64,000 nt of DNA from Eledone cirrhosa (taxonomy: Eukaryota). The notes beneath the pieces were generated by a model. That model saw only the letters and a program-made list of their open reading frames with translations. It ran no database searches and was not told the origin of the DNA. The stretch lies in the NCBI GenBank assembly GCA_964016885.1, contig OZ024766.1:14198001-14262000 (forward strand). Direction: 5' to 3'. Shown here piece by piece: positions 9,720-58,112 of the stretch. The translations under genes were made by a program, and so were the position numbers. Each line of letters starts with the position of its first letter. The stretch's first letter is position 1.

Positions 9720-10695
9720 ATAAAATATTAAACAAATAATGAACAAACAATTCCTTACATTAAACAAAAAAAGTTCACTATTTAACGATCGTTTCTAGGG
9801 TATATATGTGTTATAATTGGTATGCATATTTAACAGATCTATGTACAAAATTATACAAAATTATACAAATTATCAAGATTAAATATACATACCTAACTCA
9901 TATATACGCCGTCTTCAGAAATAATGAAGTATATTTATTGATAATAACAACAATTCAAAATATCAGTTCAAAATTGACCAATGAAAACACAAAGGGTTAA
10001 AAAGCAGTTTGGTGTGTGTATATACATGTAAAACCCTACACACATTTTACAATAATGTGTGTATAATCTGTATGTGCATACTAAAAAGATGGATGCAAAT
10101 AAAAAATTTCAAGGTTAATATCTCTGTAAGCTTAATGCGTTGATAAGATACGCAATGATACTTATGGAGTCAAGCATATAAATATATTTTTTTCATACTC
10201 ACACATATCAGTATATCCCACATACATGTGCGTATATATATAAATATACACATAACCACGAACACACAAACACACACACTCCCCCACTCACATTTATATA
10301 TGTGGATATAAAATCATAAGCAAACAGAAATTAAGTCACTCACATAAACACACTGGTACACACATTTCAAGATCAAGATACAGAAATTAGGTGGGAGGGG
10401 GGGGAGGGGTCAGTATTAGACTGTCAGACCAGACAACCTTAATATAAATGTATCTATAAATTATGAAAAATAAAAAAATAAAAACAATAAAATATATTAC
10501 ATATAATATAATGTACATACGCATACAGATATACATACACATACATACATGTACGCGCACATAGAGATATCTATACATACATACATACACACATACCTAT
10601 ACTGTCATACACACACATACATTTACACGAACATACACATACACATATAAAAAGATATAAATACGGACACACACGCACGCAACACATACATACAT

Positions 10696-10748
<53 letters not shown>

Positions 10749-10857
10749 TATACACACACACGTAGACTCATATATATATACATACACATACATACATTTA
10801 TACACAAACATATATATCCCACACTCATACCACCATAAAAACACATACAAACATCCA

Positions 10858-10912
<55 letters not shown>

Positions 10913-11127
10913 ACATACACACACGTACACACATATGTACATATACATACACATATACACACACACACATATATATATCCACACACAGACATAAAATACA
11001 GACATGCACACATATATATATATATATATATATATTTCATTACTCTTATATATACACACAGTATATATACATACACAACCTCACTTATACACATATACAC
11101 ATAAGTTATATTACAATAATAATAAAG

Positions 11128-11170
<43 letters not shown>

Positions 11171-11361
11171 TATACACACATATACACATATACATACACA
11201 CACATACACATACATACATACATACACATACATACATACACCTAAATATAAACATATATAAATACACACATACGAATAAAGACATATATTCACACATAGA
11301 CACCTATATACACATATATATATATAAATATCTATATACACACACATACACATACATACAC

Positions 11362-11392
<31 letters not shown>

Positions 11393-11436
11393 CACATATA
11401 CACACACGCACACACATACAGACACACATACACACT

Positions 11437-11473
<37 letters not shown>

Positions 11474-13081
11474 ATGTGAGTGTGCGCCAATACACATATA
11501 TACACATACATACACACATACAAACACACACAAACACATACATATGCATACGCACACACACACACACATATATCACATAGATACGAAGATAAACATATAA
11601 ATAGAGAGACATACAAATATATACAGAACCCATATACACATACATACAAATACGCATATACATATATATACATATATACACACATATATATTCCTATATA
11701 CAAGCATACACATACACACACATATATACATATACATACACACATACATATCACACATTCACATACACGTACATATATAATACATATATATACATATATA
11801 TACATATATATGTATGTACAATCATATATACACACTCAATCTTACATTCATATTTACATGCTCATATATGTATTTTTATATTTAGAAATAAATACCAAAA
11901 AAAACTATATAGACACCCATCTACACATATATTCATACATATACACTTACAAAAACAGATGATAATAGTATGGGGGAAAGGGGGGGTTTGGAGAAGGGGA
12001 TCAAAGTAAATATATGTTTCAAGAAACATATAATATTTTCCATATCTTAATTCAATGTATGTTCCTACATATTTTCAGTGCTAGGAAATACGAAATCTAT
12101 GCATCACAAAATAAAAAAGTATACTATTAATCATATGTCAACTAAACCAAAGATAGTCAACATATTGATTTCCAAGGTGTAAATTAGTTAGGTTTATAAT
12201 ATTTGAGGCAGAATTATGAAATCAAACAGTAGTAGATTATTAATTACATTATAACTAAATTAAAGTTAATAACGTTATGGTATCAATATTAGGAGATGAA
12301 TAGGGAAAAGAAACCCAAATAAAAATAAAAATAAAATAAAGTATTACATCGGTAGTAGCATATAAATTATATGTTAACTAAGTTAAAAATTATATATTTA
12401 TTTCAATAGTATATGTTAATTAGTATATGTTAATTAGGTATACAATACATAAAGCAGATATTGTATTTCATCAATAGCATAATATAATTATATGCAAATA
12501 AAAATCAAAATTAATACGCACACATATACATATACATACACATACACATACCTATACATATACATACACATATATATATATACATATATATACATATATA
12601 TACACATACATACATATATAGTCACATAAATATACATACATATACACATACAACACACACATATACGTATACATATAGATATACATATCTTTTTCAAAAA
12701 ATTTGCACAGAATATATTAACTAGGTATATATCCAAAAACACCTCCCATTCTATGATTACATGACATTCTGCAATTTGTCTGTACAATGATACTAATTTT
12801 AAGCAAATTAAAGTTAAAATTAAAGTTTTAGGTTGATTAAAGCTAAAACCAAATAATAAATATATTTCCAAAATGTATATTAATTAGGTCAATAATACTA
12901 AAAATTCTTTCTCCGTCATAGGATACATGATATTATTTTGTTATATTTTATCTGTAAAAGAATTATAATAAAAAAAAAAAAAAATTATAATAAAAGGTTA
13001 AACTAAATTAAAAAATTATAATAAAAGGTTAAAATAAGTTAAAATTAATCTATAAATTAAATTACTGAATATATATTAGTA
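9720..13081 (-). repeat. Left arm of the 3.4-kb inverted repeat (inverted copy of the PLE 3' region)
   Basis: Reverse complement of 14851-18228. The junction attactgaatatatattagta mirrors tactaatatatattcagtaat. Mirror-image ORFs in the track (e.g. 12488..12871- and 15062..15445+) are identical. Confidence 0.96.
9775..9927 (-). ncRNA. Type I hammerhead ribozyme motif (mirror copy of 18021-18173)
   Basis: Exact reverse complement of 18021-18173. Confidence 0.65.
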
Positions 13082-28396: not shown

Positions 28397-28477
28397 TCAA
28401 TCTAAGATATTCTTGAAGCTTTTAGAAACTCCGCCTCGTGTTACTTCTGTCAAAACTTGTTGTCTCTCCTTGCTCTG
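28397..28477 (-). CDS. TERT: TERT terminal coding exon
   Basis: Polypyrimidine tract plus accag acceptor; encodes QSKERQQVLTEVTRGGVSKSFKNILD-TGA (compare the vertebrate TERT end ...SDFKTILD*); phase 0 fits the upstream exon. Confidence 0.85.
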   Translation of the reverse strand, partial: QSKERQQVLTEVTRGGVSKSFKNILD

Positions 28478-41327: not shown

Positions 41328-41430
41328 CAGGTATTTGGTCTTGCAGCAATGTCTCTGCAGCAGGATTTGAAGCTTGTGATACTGAGTTGGATATGAGGAC
41401 AGCTTGAGGTGAAATGCCTTGAAGCACACC
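41328..41430 (-). CDS. TERT: TERT penultimate coding exon
   Basis: Acceptor ctttcccatatctag, donor ctg|gtaagt; 103 nt, phase 2 to 0; encodes (W)VCFKAFHLKLSSYPTQYHKLQILLQRHCCKTKYL (compare human [22 protein letters not shown]). Confidence 0.87.
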
Positions 41431-50200: not shown

Positions 50201-50421
50201 TCACTACTCAGAGAGTACTGACCTCTCGGACAGGTCAGTACTCAGAGAGAGTACTGACCTCTCGGACAGGTCATCACAGACCAGGTCACTACTCAGAGAG
50301 TACTGAGCTCTCGGACAGGTCATCACAGACCAGGTCAGTACTCAGAGAGTGTACTGACCTCTCGGACAGGTCATCACGGACCAGGTCACTACTCAATCAG
50401 AGAGAGCCACTGACCTCTCAG
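44216..50421. repeat. ~49-bp (47-53) palindromic minisatellite (~125 copies), sister variant of the 52-mer
   Basis: Unit ggtcatcacagaccaggtcactactcagagagtactgacctctcggaca. Confidence 0.96.
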
Positions 50422-50796
50422 ATGAAGTGGAGACCTCAATCTTCCTTTCTTACATACTCACACTCTACTGGGTGCCCAAACAGAGCAGTGGTCAGCATCT
50501 CGCTTACATATGTCTTAACGCTCAACAGAATGTATTTTATAGTGGCACCCACACTAGGGAGGTTGTCATGTCCTTGACCCTTTATTTAGCAGGTTTTCTA
50601 CAGCATGATACTCATCCTAACACCAACCACTGGCTCCTCCCATCTCTTAGTTTGGCAAGTTTTCTATGGCTGGATGTATACCATCAACCACTTGACAGAG
50701 TGTACTGGGTGTGTCACTAGCACTAGGGAGGTTGGTCGTTAACAGAACTGAAGGGACCTTACTTGGCAAGTGGGTACATATGAAATTTTTACATAC

Positions 50797-50852
50797 CATT
50801 CATTCTCTTCGAAATTCAGTGGATATGAATCACTGTCGTTGGTTCCTTTCAT
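50797..50852 (-). CDS. TERT: TERT coding exon
   Basis: Acceptor ttgttttacag, donor atg|gtatgt; 56 nt, phase 0 to 2; encodes MKGTNDSDSYPLNFEENE(W) (compare human GPLPSEAVQW). Confidence 0.82.
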
Positions 50853-50967
50853 CTGTAAAACAATAACAACAACAATAATAATCATAATACAATAAAAGGA
50901 GTGTGAGGCTGAGACCCGAATATATTTGTTTATCCCGTTAGTAAAATAAGTTAGATTACTTTGAATA

Positions 50968-51395
50968 AATAATTGTTTCTACTGTTGGCACAAGGCCAGC
51001 AATTACCCCAGTACATTACTGGTACTTTATTTTATCAACCCTGTAATAATTGTTTCTACTTTTGGGGGCACAAGGCCAGCAATTACCCCAGTACATTACT
51101 GGTACTTTATTTTATCAACCCTGTAATAATTGTTTCTACTTTTGGGGGCACAAGGCCAGCAATTACCCCAGTACATTACTGGTACTTTATTTTATCGACC
51201 CTGTAATAATTGTTTCCATTTTTGGCACAAGGCCAGCAATTACCCCAGTACATTACTGGTACTTTATTTTATCGACCCTGTAAGGATGAAAGGCAAAGTT
51301 AACCTCGGCGGGATTTGAACTCAGAACCTAAAGTGCCATAACTCTATGCGTCAAAGCATGGTGTCCGACCCTCTACTGATACTGCCAATCCACCG
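50968..51395 (-). mobile_element. SINE B with 3' segment repeated four times, embedded in a MITE remnant (about 50890-51465)
   Basis: Reverse complement of SINE B; both flanks are inverted homologues of the flanks of the 59401 copy. Confidence 0.85.
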
Positions 51396-51480
51396 TAATG
51401 AATGATTATTACATAATTTATCTACCAAATTTCGTAGCTCTTGATTGTCAACACTTCCAGTTATGATATAACATACGCCA

Positions 51481-52454
51481 TGGAGGCACATGGCTTACAG
51501 GTTAGAGCATTGGCCTGGCAATCGAAAGGTTGTGAGTTCAATTCTCAGACCAGGTGATGTGTTGTTTCCTTGAGCAAGACACTTTATTTCACATTGCTCC
51601 AGTTTACACAGCTGTAGAAATGAGATGAGAGGGACTGGGGTTCATATCATTCCACTGCAAAGTGGTCGTGGAGGTGCCACGGCTAAAAAGCACCCAGCAC
51701 TCACTGTAAAGTGGTCGTGGAGGTGCCACGGCAAGAAAGCACCCAGCACTCACTGTAAAGTGGTCGTGGAGGTGCCACGGCTAAAAAGCACCCAGCACTC
51801 ACTGTAAAGTGGTCGTGGAGGTGCCACGGCAAGAAAGCACCCAGCACTCACTGTAAAGTGGTCGTGGAGGTGCCACGGCTAAAAAGCACCCAGCACTCAC
51901 TGTAAAGTGGTCGTGGAGGTGCCATGGCAAAAAAGCACCCAGCACTCACTGTAAAGTGGTCGTGGAGGTGCCACGGCAAGAAAGCACCCAGCACTCACTG
52001 TAAAGTGGTCGTGGAGGTGCCACGGCAAGAAAGCACCCAGCACTCACTGTAAAGTGGTCGTGGAGGTGCCACGGCAAAAAAGCACCCAGCACTCACTGTA
52101 AAGTGGTCGTGGAGGTGCCACGGCAAGAAAGCACCCAGCACTCACTGTAAAGTGGTCGTGGAGGTGCCACGGCTAAAAAGCACCCAGCACTCACTGTAAA
52201 GTGGTCGTGGAGGTGCCACGGCAAGAAAGCCCCCAGCACTCACTGTAAAGTGGTCGTGGAGGTGCCACGGCTAAAAAGGCAGCCAGCACTCACTGTAAAG
52301 TGGTCGTGGAGGTGCCACGGCTAAAAAGCACCCAGCACTCACTGTAAATGAGGTTGGTGTTAGGAAGGGCATCCAGCTGTAGAAATCAAGCCAGAATCAG
52401 TTCCCGTCCCACCCTTGCAAGCAGGGAAAAGTGGACGTAAAATGATGATGATGA
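51481..52454 (+). mobile_element. SINE A with ~14 copies of the 49-bp unit
   Basis: A/B boxes at 51491-51546; array at about 51653-52349; RTE-type tail and (gat)n. Confidence 0.92.
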
Positions 52455-52580
52455 TATATTTCTATATTTGCCACAAGGGCGCACAAGAAAAGGGGTCAAT
52501 ACAAAGACACATGCCGGGGATTTTACATAGAGTCGTGTAAAAATATTGAAACAAACAAATTTAACAATCGAAATCCCCAG

Positions 52581-53218
52581 GGATTGCATTACATGTGGGG
52601 CTGGAGGGACAGTGGGAGTGCATTACATGTGGGGCTGGAGGGACAGTGGGAGTGGATTACATGTGGGGCTGGAGGGACAGTGGGAGTGCATTACATGTGG
52701 GGCTGGAGGGACAGTGGGAGTGCATTACATGTGGGGCTGGAGGGACAGTGGGAGTGCATTACATGTGGGGCTGGAGGGACAGTGGGAGTGCATTACATGT
52801 GGGGCTGGAGGGACAGTGGGATTGCATTACATGTGGGGCTGGAGGGACAGTGGGAGTGCATTACATGTGGGGCTGGAGGGACAGTGGGAGTGGATTACAT
52901 GTGGGGATGGAGGGACAGTGGGAGTGCATTACATGTGGGGCTGGAGGGACAGTGGGAGTGGATTACATGTGGGGCTGGAGGGACAGTGGGAGTGCATTAC
53001 ATGTGGGGCTGGAGGGACAGTGGGAGTGCATTACATGTGGGGCTGGAGGGACAGTGGGAGTGGATTACATGTGGGGCTGGAGGGACAGTGGGAGTGCATT
53101 ACATGTGGGGATGGAGGGACAGTGGGATTGCATTACATGTGGGGATGGAGGGACAGTGGGAGTGCATTACATGTGGGGCTGGAGGGACAGTGGGAGTGGA
53201 TTACATGTGGGGCTGGAG
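52581..53218 (+). repeat. 32-bp G-rich minisatellite (~20 copies)
   Basis: Unit gcattacatgtggggctggagggacagtgggagt. Confidence 0.96.
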
Positions 53219-53563
53219 AGAGTGGTATATGTAGCACACCACCACTACAGATACCACCACCACCTTCACAAACAAAAAACTCCCAGGCCTCCCCATCCCA
53301 CCCTCACATATCCCCCAGTTACCCACCTTCCCCCCTCCCATGTCCTCCAGTTACCCACCTACCCATGTCCCCCACCTCCCTCCCTCTCACGTCCCCCAGT
53401 TACCCCTCTACGCCCCTCCCATGTGCCCCAGTTAGCCACCATCCTCTCTCCCATGTCCCCCAGTTACCCCGTCCCATGTCTCCCGTTACCCACTTACTCC
53501 CTCCCCATATCCCCCAGTTACCCACCTCCCTCCCTCCCATGTCCCCCACCTACCTCTACTCAC

Positions 53564-53622
53564 CTTCTTCATGTGGAAACGTGTTTGCTGGATGAAGTAG
53601 CTGGCAATATGTCGGATACCAT
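53564..53622 (-). CDS. TERT: TERT coding exon
   Basis: Acceptor ctattttcag, donor aag|gtgagt; 59 nt, phase 1 to 0; encodes (N)GIRHIASYFIQQTRFHMKK (compare human RVISDTASLCYSILK). Confidence 0.87.
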
Positions 53623-53667
53623 CTGAAAATAGAAACATTATATATGTAGGGCCCCCGTTTTGACATA

Positions 53668-56508
53668 CTAGCAGTGGTACCCGGCGTTGCACGGGATAAT
53701 GCACTCCCACTGTCCCTCCAACCCCACATGCAATGCAATCCCACTGTCCCTCCAGCCCCACATGTAATGCAATCCCACTGTCCCTCCAGCCCCACATGTA
53801 ATGCAATCCCACTGTCCCTCCAGCCCCACATGTAATGCACTCCCACTGTCCCTCCAGCCCCACATGTAATGCACTCCCACTGTCCCTCCAGCCCCACATG
53901 TAATGTACTCCCACTGTCCCTCCATCCCCACATGTAATGTACTCCCACTGTCCCTCCATCCCCACATGTAATGCACTCCCACTGTCCCTCCAGCCCCACA
54001 TGTAATGCAATCCCACTGTCCCTCCAGCCCCACATGTAATGCACTCCCACTGTCCCTCCAGCCCCACATGTAATGCAATCCCACTGTCCCTCCAGCCCCA
54101 CATGTAATCCACTCCCACTGTCCCTCCAGCCCCACATGTAATCCACTCCCACTGTCCCTCCAGCCCCACATGTAATGCACTCCCACTGTCCCTCCAGCCC
54201 CACATGTAATCCACTCCCACTGTCCCTCCAGCCCCACATGTAATGCACTCCCACTGTCCCTCCAGCCCCACATGTAATCCACTCCCACTGTCCCTCCAGC
54301 CCCACATGTAATGCACTCCCACTGTCCCTCCAGCCCCACATGTAATCCACTCCCACTGTCCCTCCAGCCCCACATGTAATCCACTCCCACTGTCCCTCCA
54401 GCCCCACATGTAATGCACTCCCACTGTCCCTCCAGCCCCACATGTAATGCAATCCCACTGTCCCTCCAGCCCCACATGTAATCCACTCCCACTGTCCCTC
54501 CAGCCCCACATGTAATGCAATCCCACTGTCCCTCCAGCCCCACATGTAATGCACTCCCACTGTCCCTCCAGCCCCACATGTAATGCAATCCCACTGTCCC
54601 TCCAGCCCCACATGTAATGCACTCTCACTGTCCCTCCAGCCCCACATGTAATGCACTGCCACTGTCCCTCCAGCCCCACATGTAATGCAATCCCACTGTG
54701 CCTCCAGCCCCACATGTAATCCACTCCCACTGTCCCTCCAGCCCCACATGTAATCCACTCCCACTGTCCCTCCAGCCCCACATGTAATGCACTCCCACTG
54801 TCCCTCCAGCCCCACATGTAATGCACTCCCACTGTCCCTCCAGCCCCACATGTAATGCAATCCCACTGTCCCTCCAGCCCCACATGTAATGTACTCCCAC
54901 TGTCCCTCCAGCCCCACATGTAATGTAATCCACTCCCACTGTCCCTCCAACCCCACATGTAATGCACTCCCACTGTCCCTCCAGCCCCACATGTAATGCA
55001 ATCCCACTGTCCCTCCAGCCCCACATGTAATGTACTCCCACTGTCCATGCAGCCCCACATGTAATCCACTCCCACTGTCCCTCCAGCCCCACATGTAATG
55101 CACTCCCACTGTCCCTCCAGCCCCACATGTAATGTACTCCCACTGTCCCTCCAGCCCCACATGTAATGCAATCCACTCCCACTGTCCCTCCAGCCCCACA
55201 TGTAATGCACTCCCACAGTCTCTCCATCCCCACATGTAATCCACTCCCACTGTCCCTCCATCCCCACATGTAATGCACTCCCACTGTCCCTCCAGCCCCA
55301 CATGTAATGCAATCCCACTGTCCCTCCAGCCCCACATGTAATGCAATCCCACTGTCCCTCCAGCCCCACATGTAATCCACTCCCACTGTCTCTCCAGCCC
55401 CACATGTAATGCACTCCCACTGTCCCCCCAGCCCCACATGTAATGCAATCCCACTGTCCCTCCATCCCCACATGTAATGTACTCCCACTGTCCCTCCAGC
55501 CCCACATGTAATGCAATCCCACTGTCCCTCCAGCCCCACATGTAATGTACTCCCACTGTCCCTCCAGCCCCACATGTAATCCACTCCCACTGTCCCTCCA
55601 GCCCCACATGTAATCCACTCCCACTGTCCCTCCAGCCCCACATGTAATGCAATCCCACTGTCCCTCCAGCCCCACATGTAATGTACTCCCACTGTCCCTC
55701 CAGCCCCACATGTAATGCAATCCCACTGTCCCTCCAGCCCCACATGTAATGTACTCCCACTGTCCCTCCAGCCCCACATGTAATGTACTCCCACTGTCCC
55801 TCCAGCCCCACATGTAATGCAATCCCACTGTCCCTCCAGCCCCACATGTAATGTACTCCCACTGTCCCTCCAGCCCCACATGTAATCCACTCCCACTGTC
55901 CCTCCAGCCCCACATGTAATCCACTCCCACTGTCCCTCCAGCCCCACATGTAATCCACTCCCACATGGAACGCGGGCCACCAACAGACCTAATTGTGGAA
56001 AAAATGCATGCCTGGACAATATGTAAAGAAAATAAACCGAATAGTCTGATGGCTGGATAATCTAAGATTTTCCCTCTATGAAGCAGGAAAAATGCAGGTT
56101 TTCACCTAATGCGGGCCCTAGGGGATCAAGGAAATGAAATTTTCTTATGTGCATAATATACCTTGAAATTTCGGGATATCTGATAGACGTAACGCCTCAA
56201 AAAAGCCCTAAGAAGCTGAAAAAAATGAAGTTTTTCACCATAATGCGGGCCCTAGGCCATAAGAAAGTTGGATTTTCTTTGCTCCCGGTATGAAGAAGAG
56301 GCTGACTAATACATAGTTACAATTTCAAGGAAATCGGTCTGACGTAACGCCTCAAAAAACCCTAGAAACCTGAAAAAAAACACGCAGTTTTTCACCTAAT
56401 GCAGGCACTAGGAGATAAAAAAGTTGAATTTTTTTATGTGCATAATACTCTCTAAAACATAAGTAACACACATAAACCGAATACTCTGATGGATAATTTT
56501 ATATAAGA
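53668..56508 (-). mobile_element. Probable non-autonomous Helitron carrying the 32-bp minisatellite
   Basis: Minus-strand 3' end cccgtgcaacgccggg (hairpin)-taccactg-CTAG|T at 53668; candidate 5' TCTTATATAAAA at 56508 (uncertain); internal ~150-bp degenerate repeats at 56090-56450. Confidence 0.6.
53697..55966 (-). repeat. 32-bp G-rich minisatellite (~70 copies), opposite orientation to 52581-53218
   Basis: Plus-strand unit actcccactgtccctccagccccacatgtaatgc is the reverse complement of the 52581 array unit. Confidence 0.96.
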
Positions 56509-56632
56509 ACCTTTGTTAAGTTATGTTCCAAACAACCCTACTTCTATGACACAAAACTGTTTGTTCTAAAAACCTTTCATTATAATTCCATGTCAGAACC
56601 TTTATTAAGTTATGCTCCAAATATCAACTTAC

Positions 56633-56762
56633 TGAAGAAGAACTTCACATTAGCTGCCGAACGTCTGTTTTGGGGCAGCCGTCTTACGTGGATGTGGAAT
56701 CGGCAAGCAATGAGGTAGTAGAAGTTGAAGACATTCATGGTGACTGTCCATAGAGAATTGAT
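56633..56762 (-). CDS. TERT: TERT coding exon (C-terminal extension); upstream exons lie outside or were not identified in this window
   Basis: Acceptor ttctcttctcattggcaacag, donor tca|gtaagt; 130 nt, phase 0 to 1; encodes INSLWTVTMNVFNFYYLIACRFHIHVRRLPQNRRSAANVKFFF (compare human [43 protein letters not shown]). Confidence 0.9.
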
Positions 56763-56833
56763 CTGTTGCCAATGAGAAGAGAAATTTGTTAAGTAGACTA
56801 GCAGAAAAACCACCCTTCTAGCATGTGTTGTGT

Positions 56834-58112
56834 CATCATCAGCATCATCATCTTCGTTTAACGTCCACTTTCCACGCTAGCATGGGTTAGACGGGAGTTG
56901 TCCCACCTGAGGCAAGGTTGGTCGGGTGACCGTGTCTCGCTCATATAGGACTATCTGGAAGGTTTTCTACAGCTGGATGCCCTTCCTAACACCAACCACA
57001 TTTACAATGTGGAACTGGGAACCTTTTACCGTGTTACCTACACGGCCACATTACAGCATGGACTGCGTGTTTTTTTGTTGTAACACCTACACGTCTGGTG
57101 GGTTTTCTACGGCTGGATGCCCTTCCTAACACCAACCACGTTTACAGTGTGGAACTGGGAGGTTTTTACCGTGTTACCTACACGGCCACATTACAGCGTG
57201 GACTGCGTGTTTTTTTGTTGTAACACCTACACGTCTGGTGGGTTTTCTACGGCTGGATGCCCTTCCTAACACCAACCACGTTTACAGTGTGGAACTGGGA
57301 GGTTTTTACCGTGTTACCTACACGGCCACATTACAGCGTGGACTGCGTGTTTTTTTGTTGTAACACCTACACGTCTGGTGGGTTTTCTACGGCTGGATGC
57401 CCTTCCTAACACCAACCACGTTTACAGTGTGGAACTGGGAGGTTTTTACCGTGTTACCTACACGGCCACATTATAGCGTGGACTGCGTGTTTTTTTGTTG
57501 TAACACCTACACGTCTGGCGGGTTTTCTACAGCTGGATGCCCTTCCTAACTCGAACCACATTTACAATGTGGAACTGGGAACCTTTTACCGTGTTACCTA
57601 CACGGCCACATTACAGCGTGGACTGTGTGTTTTTGTCTTGTGACACCTACATGACCTCGATCTCATTATCTCATTTATTTGGACTGGATGTTGTGGTAGC
57701 AACTTTATAGAGAGAGGGTGGTGTTGGTGGGAGTGGGAGGAAAGGGTAGGGGTAGTGGATTGGGGTGTATATTTGGTTAAGAGGTGCCTACTGACTGTAG
57801 GTTTTACTTTGTACATAGGCAAGGCGGGTCTTCTGTATTACTGTGTAGCGCCAAAGACCTCGGTCCAGGGACATTGTCTTAGAGAGGTGTAAGTGTGTAA
57901 GGCCGGAATTTATCAGATCGTCCCAGGTTTTTCTGGGTCTGACTACTCCGTGGCTACCATCTATTTTGATCGCCCTGCACTTTTTTATACAACTGTCGTC
58001 TTTCATGCGCATCACGTGGCCATACCAACGTAGTCTTCTCTCGAGTAAACAGCATCTGATCCCTCTTATTCCTAATTTCTCACTTAGTTCACTTATGCTT
58101 TGCCGTTCGTAT
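56834..58112 (-). mobile_element. 5'-truncated RTE LINE: ORF end (57788-58112) plus long 3' UTR with a 140-bp unit repeated about five times
   Basis: ORF ELSEKLGIRGIRCCLLERRLRWYGHVMRMKDDSCIKKC...RPRKTW; repeat starts at 56961, 57101, 57241, 57381 and 57521; (gat)n tail. Confidence 0.88.

What the first reader, a model, noticed from the sequence alone, without database searches (positions are those of the whole stretch)
52581..55966. A 59-nt TERT exon clamped between two oppositely oriented arrays of the same G-rich 32-bp minisatellite: candidate RNA-structure splicing switch
Seen: ~70 copies start about 75 nt upstream of the exon acceptor, and ~20 reverse-complement copies lie about 350 nt downstream of the donor. 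The pre-mRNA can therefore form up to ~640 bp of near-perfect dsRNA in many registers, with the exon in the loop. The upstream array is G-rich on the transcript (GGGG-GG-GGG-GGG per unit), so G-quadruplexes could compete with the duplex. Skipping 59 nt frameshifts the C-terminal extension. Known: intronic G-rich VNTRs in human TERT influence its alternative splicing, and coleoid cephalopods have extensive ADAR editing. Inference: this may be an independently evolved, copy-number-tunable control of telomerase splicing and a hyper-editing substrate.
Basis: partly seen in the sequence, partly recalled or inferred. Interest (0 to 1): 0.8.

Follow-up and report, generated by a model that had tools for sequence, protein, structure and literature searches.

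The report
Inverted minisatellites around octopod TERT exon
A short telomerase-gene exon in an octopus-type genome sits between two opposite-facing runs of one 34-letter repeat that are predicted to pair in the RNA, but the one spliced transcript found keeps the exon, so the pair is likely a tolerated DNA-repair accident rather than an evolved splicing switch.

Summary
The anatomy is real; the switch is unsupported. A 59-nt exon (53622-53564, minus strand) belongs to a five-exon, 142-aa TERT C-terminal frame, 82 of 139 residues identical to Octopus vulgaris TERT. It lies between 66 and 19 inverted copies of a 34-bp (not 32-bp) unit; a 622-bp duplex is predicted and G-quadruplexes do not displace it. 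The layout is rare locally (1 other inverted pair among 230 arrays), and the unit occurs only at four near-identical copies of this gene segment, with arrays of 66/19, 90/113, 47/35 and 31/92 units. Both arrays sit at broken transposon edges, which points to a local templated inverted insertion followed by expansion. The one spliced contig available includes the exon; skipping, editing and circles were not testable. No catalytic TERT exon was found within 140-431 kb upstream of any copy, so this copy may be a 3' fragment, although 5 of 27 chromosome starts carry canonical telomere repeats. Verdict: likely neutral; small chance of length-tuned skipping.

The parts
53564..53622 (-). TERT C-terminal exon B, 59 nt
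   Evidence: AG/GT sites; 52% identity to O. vulgaris TERT 104-128; spliced between exons A and C in a contig of run X4
56633..56762 (-). TERT exon A, 130 nt
   Evidence: Pfam TERT_C 37.3 bits over cut-off 27; best PDB hits are human TERT, weak E 0.03-0.18; covered by the X4 contig
50797..50852 (-). TERT exon C, 56 nt
   Evidence: loose end of the X4 contig is its start; in frame
41328..41430 (-). TERT exon D, 103 nt
   Evidence: tblastn and genome search with O. vulgaris TERT
28397..28477 (-). TERT last exon, coding part with stop
   Evidence: 52% identity to O. vulgaris TERT 178-202; closes the 142-aa frame
53697..55964 (-). upstream array, 66 copies of a 34-bp unit, G-rich on the transcript
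52580..53218 (+). downstream array, 19 copies of the same unit in opposite orientation
53296..53556 (-). degenerate ~32-bp G-rich repeat just after the donor; stronger G4 candidate than the arrays; unrelated to the 34-mer
   Evidence: score 1.59, 6 canonical motifs
53668..56510 (-). high-copy Helitron-like element that hosts the upstream array (3' hairpin and CTAG end at 53668; 5' end approximate)
   Evidence: sequence; end is dispersed, 214 candidates; other family copies lack the array
52455..52579 (-). about 124-bp 3' tail of a 5'-truncated LINE whose truncation point abuts the downstream array
   Evidence: 1837 candidates; 10 of 10 other copies examined continue into LINE sequence, none into the array

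Best explanation
The two arrays are likely a neutral by-product: one array was probably copied in inverted orientation into a nearby DNA break, both then likely grew by ordinary minisatellite expansion, and although they are predicted to pair in the pre-mRNA the exon is included in the one spliced transcript seen. Shown: exon, arrays, junctions, four gene-segment copies with different array lengths, and an exon-including transcript. Inferred: (1) a templated inverted insertion with 2-3 nt microhomologies, which replaced about 7 bp inside a Helitron-like element, while the partner array abuts a truncated LINE tail; which came first is not known; (2) expansion and some exchange between the arrays after the segment duplicated; (3) a long duplex that forms once the downstream array is transcribed and is probably A-to-I edited like other opposite repeats; (4) exon definition probably wins most of the time, because both splice sites are transcribed 343 nt before the partner arm begins and lie in a 479-nt loop, so any skipping is leak removed by nonsense-mediated decay, not a selected control.
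For: Inclusion: one 578-nt contig of run X4 covers exon A and exon B, with loose ends equal to the end of exon A and the start of exon C. Local origin: all 207 exact genome matches of a 32-letter part of the unit (131 forward, 76 reverse) lie in the four gene-segment copies. Not transposon cargo: reads and contigs from other copies of the host element run from its terminal hairpin straight into the body (1462 reads of X11), and 10 of 10 other LINE tails lack the array. Junctions are the same in 4 of 4 copies, so one event. No visible constraint on length: arrays range 31-90 and 19-113 units, also in the C23 copy that has lost exon A. The setting makes arrays freely: 75% of the window is tandem repeat. 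Templated inverted insertions with microhomology are a known repair product (PMC11724301, abstract only).
Against: The layout is rare: 1 other inverted same-unit pair among 230 arrays in 1.54 Mb; 0 of the 4 other exons have an inverted pair within 3 kb. The predicted duplex is enormous (622 bp, -1551 kcal/mol for the 1860 nt folded). Inverted Alu pairs are enriched around skippable human exons, and short exons skip more (10.1101/2025.03.07.642063, abstract and section 5). Both arrays are kept in 4 of 4 copies and neither invades the 77 nt before the acceptor. The RNA evidence is one low-depth contig (10.2) from one sample, and it cannot be assigned to a gene copy because the exons are identical.
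Confidence: 0.62

Rival explanations
1. Loop-out skipping: the duplex brackets exon B and lowers its inclusion in proportion to the shorter array; the skipped message hits a premature stop and is degraded, so array length tunes TERT dose, whether selected or not.
For: Duplex prediction; frameshift to a stop 50 codons in; rarity of the layout; length variation between copies; human precedents for VNTR-driven TERT skipping by RNA:RNA pairing (PMC3948165, first third of the text) and for inverted Alu pairs.
Against: An exon-including transcript exists; the arrays look like repair scars; the copy may not be part of a catalytic gene. I put an evolved, adaptive version at about 0.07 within this figure.
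Confidence: 0.2
2. The pair matters at the DNA level: the inverted arrays exchange sequence and form hairpins that destabilise the locus and could flip or delete the exon.
For: Variant make-up of upstream and downstream arrays matches best within the same copy, rank 1 of 24 pairings; the region is a nest of 100-150 kb duplications; the C23 copy has a deletion ending near the upstream element.
Against: The exon has the same orientation relative to its flanks in 4 of 4 copies; the rank test has only four, non-independent copies and is driven by C23; the duplication limits lie tens of kb from the arrays.
Confidence: 0.1
3. G-quadruplex switch: G4 folding of G-rich intron RNA competes with the duplex and sets inclusion.
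For: The unit has three G tracts of 3 or more; human VNTR6-1 acts through G4 (PMC11830802, abstract and section 7); the degenerate repeat after the donor scores 1.59 with 6 canonical motifs.
Against: The upstream array scores 1.12 and holds 0 canonical motifs with loops up to 12 nt; with G4 allowed, the fold keeps all 622 inter-array pairs.
Confidence: 0.04
4. The inversion is an assembly error.
For: The region is repeat-dense and duplicated; some of the four copies could be uncollapsed haplotypes (window and C27c differ by 0.5% in unique flanks).
Against: The inverted layout has the same junctions in 4 separately assembled copies with different array lengths and variants; short-read contigs of 461-503 nt span the exon stretch in one piece (may be the assembly's own sample).
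Confidence: 0.04

Closest known systems
Inverted Alu pairs that loop out exons (Denisko et al., 10.1101/2025.03.07.642063; abstract and section 5 read)
   Same: Opposite repeats in both flanking introns, within 1 kb, around a short exon; long predicted stem-loop; repeat kept away from the acceptor.
   Different: Here the arms are a locus-specific tandem unit, 97% complementary, able to pair in many registers and variable in length; no skipping is shown.
Human TERT intron 6 VNTR6-1, 38-bp unit (PMC3948165, first third of the text; PMC11830802, abstract and section 7)
   Same: A G-rich 30-40 bp minisatellite of variable copy number in a TERT intron, G-rich on the sense strand.
   Different: The human array lies kilobases from exons 7-8 of the RT domain, has no inverted twin described in the parts read, and has deletion, mutation and ligand evidence; this one flanks a C-terminal exon, has an inverted twin, weak G4 potential and no functional data.
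Circular RNA formation through short inverted intronic repeats (PMC4201285, passages)
   Same: Complementary repeats on both sides of an exon.
   Different: No circle was testable; a single 59-nt exon is very short for back-splicing (recalled, not from a call).
Helentron/Helitron-borne satellite arrays of oysters (PMC7492417, search listing only; PMC4067079, passages)
   Same: A tandem array inside a non-autonomous rolling-circle-type element in a mollusc.
   Different: The array is not family cargo: other copies lack it and the unit is confined to this gene segment.
Templated inverted insertions at DNA breaks (PMC11724301, abstract only)
   Same: Locally templated, inverted, microhomology-joined insert of about one unit's length.
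   Different: Shown in yeast; here inferred from junctions, and followed by expansion to tens of units.

Membership tests
TERT (C-terminal extension) | Pfam TERT_C match and colinear similarity to a known TERT | tested here: met
   37.3 bits over cut-off 27; 82 of 139 residues identical to O. vulgaris CAI9741689.1
TERT (full-length catalytic gene) | RNA-binding and RT-motif exons upstream on the same strand | tested here: inconclusive
   Not found in 425, 431, 241 and 140 kb upstream of the four copies or genome-wide with these queries; short exons can be missed genome-wide and the assembly has gaps
Inverted-repeat loop-out exon skipping | Complementary repeats in both flanking introns able to form a stable duplex | tested here: met
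   642 nt at 97%; 622 bp predicted
Inverted-repeat loop-out exon skipping | A skipped isoform that depends on the pairing | not testable with these tools
   Only contigs of one RNA-like run; they show the included form and cannot show absence of a minor form
TERT VNTR6-1-type splicing switch | Copy-number-variable G-rich intronic minisatellite in TERT | tested here: met
   31-90 and 19-113 units across four copies; variation between animals not tested
TERT VNTR6-1-type splicing switch | Strong sense-strand G4 potential of the unit | tested here: not met
   score 1.12, 0 canonical motifs with loops up to 12 nt (the 1.2 threshold is recalled)
TERT VNTR6-1-type splicing switch | Array deletion or length shifts the isoform ratio | not testable with these tools
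   needs minigenes or population RNA
Hyper-edited dsRNA (ADAR substrate) | A-to-G clusters in RNA over the arms | not testable with these tools
   no raw RNA reads served
Canonical Helitron (host element) | 3' CTRR with a 16-20 nt palindrome about 11 bp from the end, followed by T | tested here: met
   16-nt palindrome 12 nt from a CTAG end, then T; definition from PMC4067079 passages
Canonical Helitron (host element) | 5' TC preceded by A | tested here: inconclusive
   a TC near 56510 is preceded by T and overlaps another repeat
Helitron-borne satellite | The array travels with the family to many loci | tested here: not met
   207 of 207 exact matches lie in the four TERT-segment copies; other element copies are empty

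The most novel reading that the evidence does not exclude
An octopod lineage has independently gained a length-tunable control of telomerase splicing: paired inverted minisatellites loop out a frameshifting C-terminal exon, ADAR editing of the duplex loosens it, and the four assembled copies (66/19, 90/113, 47/35, 31/92 units around an identical exon) are a ready-made dose series. That would be convergent with the human TERT VNTR6-1 switch, by a different structure.
Probability: 0.1. Interest if true: 0.7.

Novelty: new member of a known kind. Interest (0 to 1): 0.32.

Why it matters
If neutral, it is a clean example of how a repair scar plus minisatellite growth builds a 600-bp near-perfect intronic duplex around an essential-looking exon without blocking splicing, and a good test substrate for loop-out skipping and cephalopod ADAR. 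If length tunes inclusion, it would be a second, independent case of repeat-controlled TERT splicing, in animals with short programmed lives. The side result matters for annotation: this assembly holds four or five partial copies of the TERT 3' end behind a zinc-finger gene and no catalytic exon that I could find, yet it has canonical telomere repeats, so the true gene is probably incompletely assembled. I saw nothing on cephalopod TERT splicing in print: searches for telomerase+octopus, cephalopod+telomer, loss of telomerase/TERT/metazoa/mollusc and a genus-name search gave listings only, and the metazoan TERT survey PMC5405514 has 0 occurrences of 'octopus' or 'cephalopod' in its main text (supplements not opened).

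Tried and rejected
No RNA holder was listed for the exon A stretch; run X4 has no kind on record and is taken as RNA only because its contig is spliced. No exon-skipping contig appeared in X4 (depth over exon A equals that of the single contig), which is no evidence of absence. Contig depth as a copy counter: exon A 32-33, exon B 19-24 in the DNA-like runs, the opposite of the 3:4 ratio expected from the assembly; depth is not a copy number, so set aside. Kinship of the degenerate 32-bp repeat to the 34-mer: rejected. Arrays as transposon cargo: rejected. Purifying selection on exons among copies: 0 differences, but expected only 1.5, 2.1 and 0.4, P0 0.22, 0.12, 0.66. A genome-wide count of the telomere hexamer (41,132 matches, the listed ones interstitial) said nothing about ends. 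Searches for 5' exons: PF12009 and PF17984 rang nowhere, controls included; oyster TERT returned 45 LINE-like hits and missed exon A, so it failed its own control; the four hits (E 4-8) are low-complexity or stray matches. Protein searches with exon A and with O. vulgaris TERT among longer proteins found none. Rfam: 0 matches in 50400-57000. Two of my own controls were mis-registered and are not counted: exon E and exon D; exon A was taken one base too long until, which spoiled the frame test.
Full report
Observation. Tandem Repeats Finder gives two arrays of one 34-bp unit: 53697-55964 (66.4 copies) and 52580-53218 (18.8 copies). They face in opposite directions; arms of 642 nt are 96-97% complementary in many registers. 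Between them, on the minus strand, is a 59-nt exon at 53622-53564 with good splice sites. The upstream array ends 77 nt before the acceptor, the inverted one starts 343 nt after the donor, and the loop is 479 nt.

The gene. Exon A (56762-56633) passes the Pfam TERT_C cut-off, and its best PDB hits, though weak, are human TERT. A search of 1.84 billion representatives gave 3 hits at E up to 0.001; two are TERT fragments of Octopus vulgaris and Argonauta hians, the third is a repeat-like protein. Exons A, B, C (50852-50797), D (41430-41328) and E (from 28477) form a 142-aa frame with 82 of 139 residues identical to the O. vulgaris protein; skipping B gives a stop after 50 codons, well upstream of later junctions. 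The organism is therefore a cephalopod, probably an octopod other than O. vulgaris (inference from identity and genome size).

RNA. The run search listed 13 runs, none on record as RNA. One of them, X4, from a second sample of the same species, holds a 578-nt contig at depth 10.2 that covers exon A exactly and exon B exactly, with loose ends equal to the end of exon A and the start of exon C. So the exon is real and an including transcript exists. Contigs cannot show the absence of a minor skipped form, an edit or a circle, and the exons are identical among gene copies, so the contig cannot be assigned to the window copy. It runs 30 nt upstream of exon A; those letters were not shown.

Structure. 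I folded 1860 nt (about 725 nt of the upstream array, the spacer and the whole downstream array): 622 inter-array pairs, -1551 kcal/mol, the same pair count with G-quadruplexes allowed and 621 at 15 C. The upstream array has a mean G4Hunter-type score of 1.12 (my implementation) and 0 canonical four-tract motifs with loops up to 12 nt, because every fourth tract needs a 14-nt loop; the degenerate repeat after the donor scores 1.59 with 6 motifs. G4 competition by the array is thus unlikely. The predicted fold inside the loop changes between runs and is not relied on.

Is it more than chance? Locally yes. Of 936 anchor points in 944 kb, 11 had an inverted pair of at least 200 nt and 90% within 1 kb on each side; 6 are exon-B loci and 5 are not. 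At 3 kb the count is 17 of 460, 8 of them exon-B loci. None of exons A, C, D, E has such a pair within 3 kb. Among 230 tandem arrays in 1.54 Mb, inverted same-unit pairs within 5 kb are the four exon-B cases and one other. This DNA is duplicated and not independent, and a rate of 0.5-2% per site still predicts many such exons in a 3-Gb genome, so rarity alone does not show function (inference).

Copies. Exon B has four near-identical copies in the assembly: the window, C27:13144895, C27:14724768 and C23:29101558, with 66/19, 90/113, 47/35 and 31/92 units. The window and C27:14.72 Mb copies have exons A-E; the 13.14 Mb copy has A-C only within the 45 kb of downstream DNA held; the C23 copy has lost exon A and shows only B. 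A lone, older exon D copy lies on C10. All 207 exact genome matches of a 32-letter part of the unit fall in these four loci. The C27 copies lie in a nest of 100-150 kb duplications of 97-99.9% identity; unique flanks differ by 0.5-0.7%, so one or two copies could be uncollapsed haplotypes.

Origin. The upstream array interrupts a high-copy element whose 3' end has a 16-nt palindrome 12 nt from a CTAG end followed by T, as canonical Helitrons do (PMC4067079 passages); its 5' end is not clear. Other copies of the element run from the hairpin directly into the body (1462 reads of X11 and a contig of X4); compared with them, the array replaces about 7 bp and shares 3 and 2 letters with the edges (read by eye). 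The downstream array begins exactly where a 124-bp dispersed repeat stops matching; 10 of 10 other copies examined carry no array there, and most continue into sequence that by eye matches the LINE frame seen upstream. Junctions are the same in 4 of 4 gene copies. The simplest history is one templated inverted insertion at a break, then expansion, then segment duplication; such insertions are known from yeast (PMC11724301, abstract). Variant frequencies of the two arrays match best within a copy (rank 1 of 24 pairings), weak support for exchange between arms.

Is this copy a working TERT gene? A 417-aa, 12-finger C2H2 frame lies on the same strand 12.6 kb upstream of exon B, shortened by frameshifts in the other three copies. 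No exon resembling the preceding TERT residues was found upstream: local alignment with O. vulgaris 1-63 and Argonauta 1-148 peaked at 56 in noise against 159, 60, 49 and 92 for exons A-D; a five-sequence profile found exons A and D and a LINE, gave exon B only 3-4 bits and missed C and E, so it is blind to short exons; a scan anchored on in-phase donors peaked at 14-19 on the sense strand against 52 and 56 for true exons A and B. The DNA covered is 425 kb (window copy), 431 kb (with one gap), 241 kb and 140 kb. Genome-wide searches with the same two protein parts found nothing credible, though they too miss short exons, and oyster TERT has 27 introns (PMC5405514 passages). Against loss of telomerase, 5 of 27 chromosome-scale starts begin with canonical repeats in telomeric polarity, and that motif is the one reported for an octopus (PMC13218726 passages). 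The likely reading is that a full gene exists, that its 5' part is unassembled or misplaced, and that most or all assembled copies are 3' fragments. Since 4 of 4 known exon-B copies carry the arrays, the true gene probably does too (inference).

Comparison. It works, if at all, like an inverted Alu pair around a short exon (10.1101/2025.03.07.642063, abstract and section 5), and it recalls human TERT VNTR6-1, which drives skipping of exons 7-8 by RNA pairing or G4 (PMC3948165, first third; PMC11830802, abstract and section 7). It meets the structural feature of the first, fails the G4 feature of the second, and the defining functional feature of both is untested. Editing is plausible, since opposite repeats are the main ADAR targets across metazoans and octopus has the highest rate in that survey (10.1101/2020.01.19.911685 passages), but that would make it ordinary. 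PMC4201285 (passages) and PMC8166319 (passages) added background only. No supplements were opened.

Verdict. Real anatomy, probably a tolerated accident (0.62); length-dependent skipping 0.2, of which an evolved control about 0.07; DNA-level instability 0.1; G4 switch 0.04; assembly error 0.04. Interest 0.32. The scan's own index held no note near this place or on this sequence.

Noticed in passing
G000:C27:13140651-13150959, C27:14690710-14729110, C23:29101558-29101616, C10:54765050-54765152: The 3' end of TERT is present as four near-identical partial copies plus an older lone exon D, and no catalytic exon was found upstream of any of the four; the true full-length locus is unplaced.
   Followed up: partly
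L005 (G000:C27, about 14263000-14264255, minus strand): A 417-aa, 12-finger C2H2 zinc-finger frame lies about 8 kb upstream of TERT exon A on the same strand and is part of the duplicated segment; read-through from its promoter could give a transcript of the TERT C-terminal exons alone.
   Followed up: partly
window 9720-18228: An 8.5-kb inverted repeat (arms 96-100% complementary) encloses a stop-free frame of over 500 aa with RT-like and GIY-YIG-like words, probably a Penelope-like element (family label recalled).
   Followed up: no
window 53296-53556: The degenerate G-rich repeat right after the donor is the best G4 candidate here and, when the upstream array is left out, is predicted to pair with the downstream array (207 pairs); it could matter more to the donor than the arrays do.
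   Followed up: partly
window 53697-55964: By eye, a common variant of the 34-bp unit shares a 9-letter and a 6-letter word at the same spacing with the human VNTR6-1 consensus printed; both are G/T-rich, so chance is quite possible; not computed.
   Followed up: no
L206, L208, L209, L212, L221 (starts of C7, C9, C10, C13, C19): Five of 27 chromosome-scale starts begin with 2 kb of canonical telomere repeat in the right polarity; the others end in other repeats or unique DNA.
   Followed up: yes
G000:C1:217842248-217971035: A large interstitial field of telomere-type repeats in the middle of C1.
   Followed up: no
window 53500-56101: The upstream array has no stop in the frame of exon B, giving an 871-codon open frame across the array; probably a by-product of the unit's sequence.
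   Followed up: no
G000:C27:14406493-14410888: The only other inverted pair of same-unit arrays found in 1.54 Mb: 72-73 bp unit, 2.9 kb apart.
   Followed up: no
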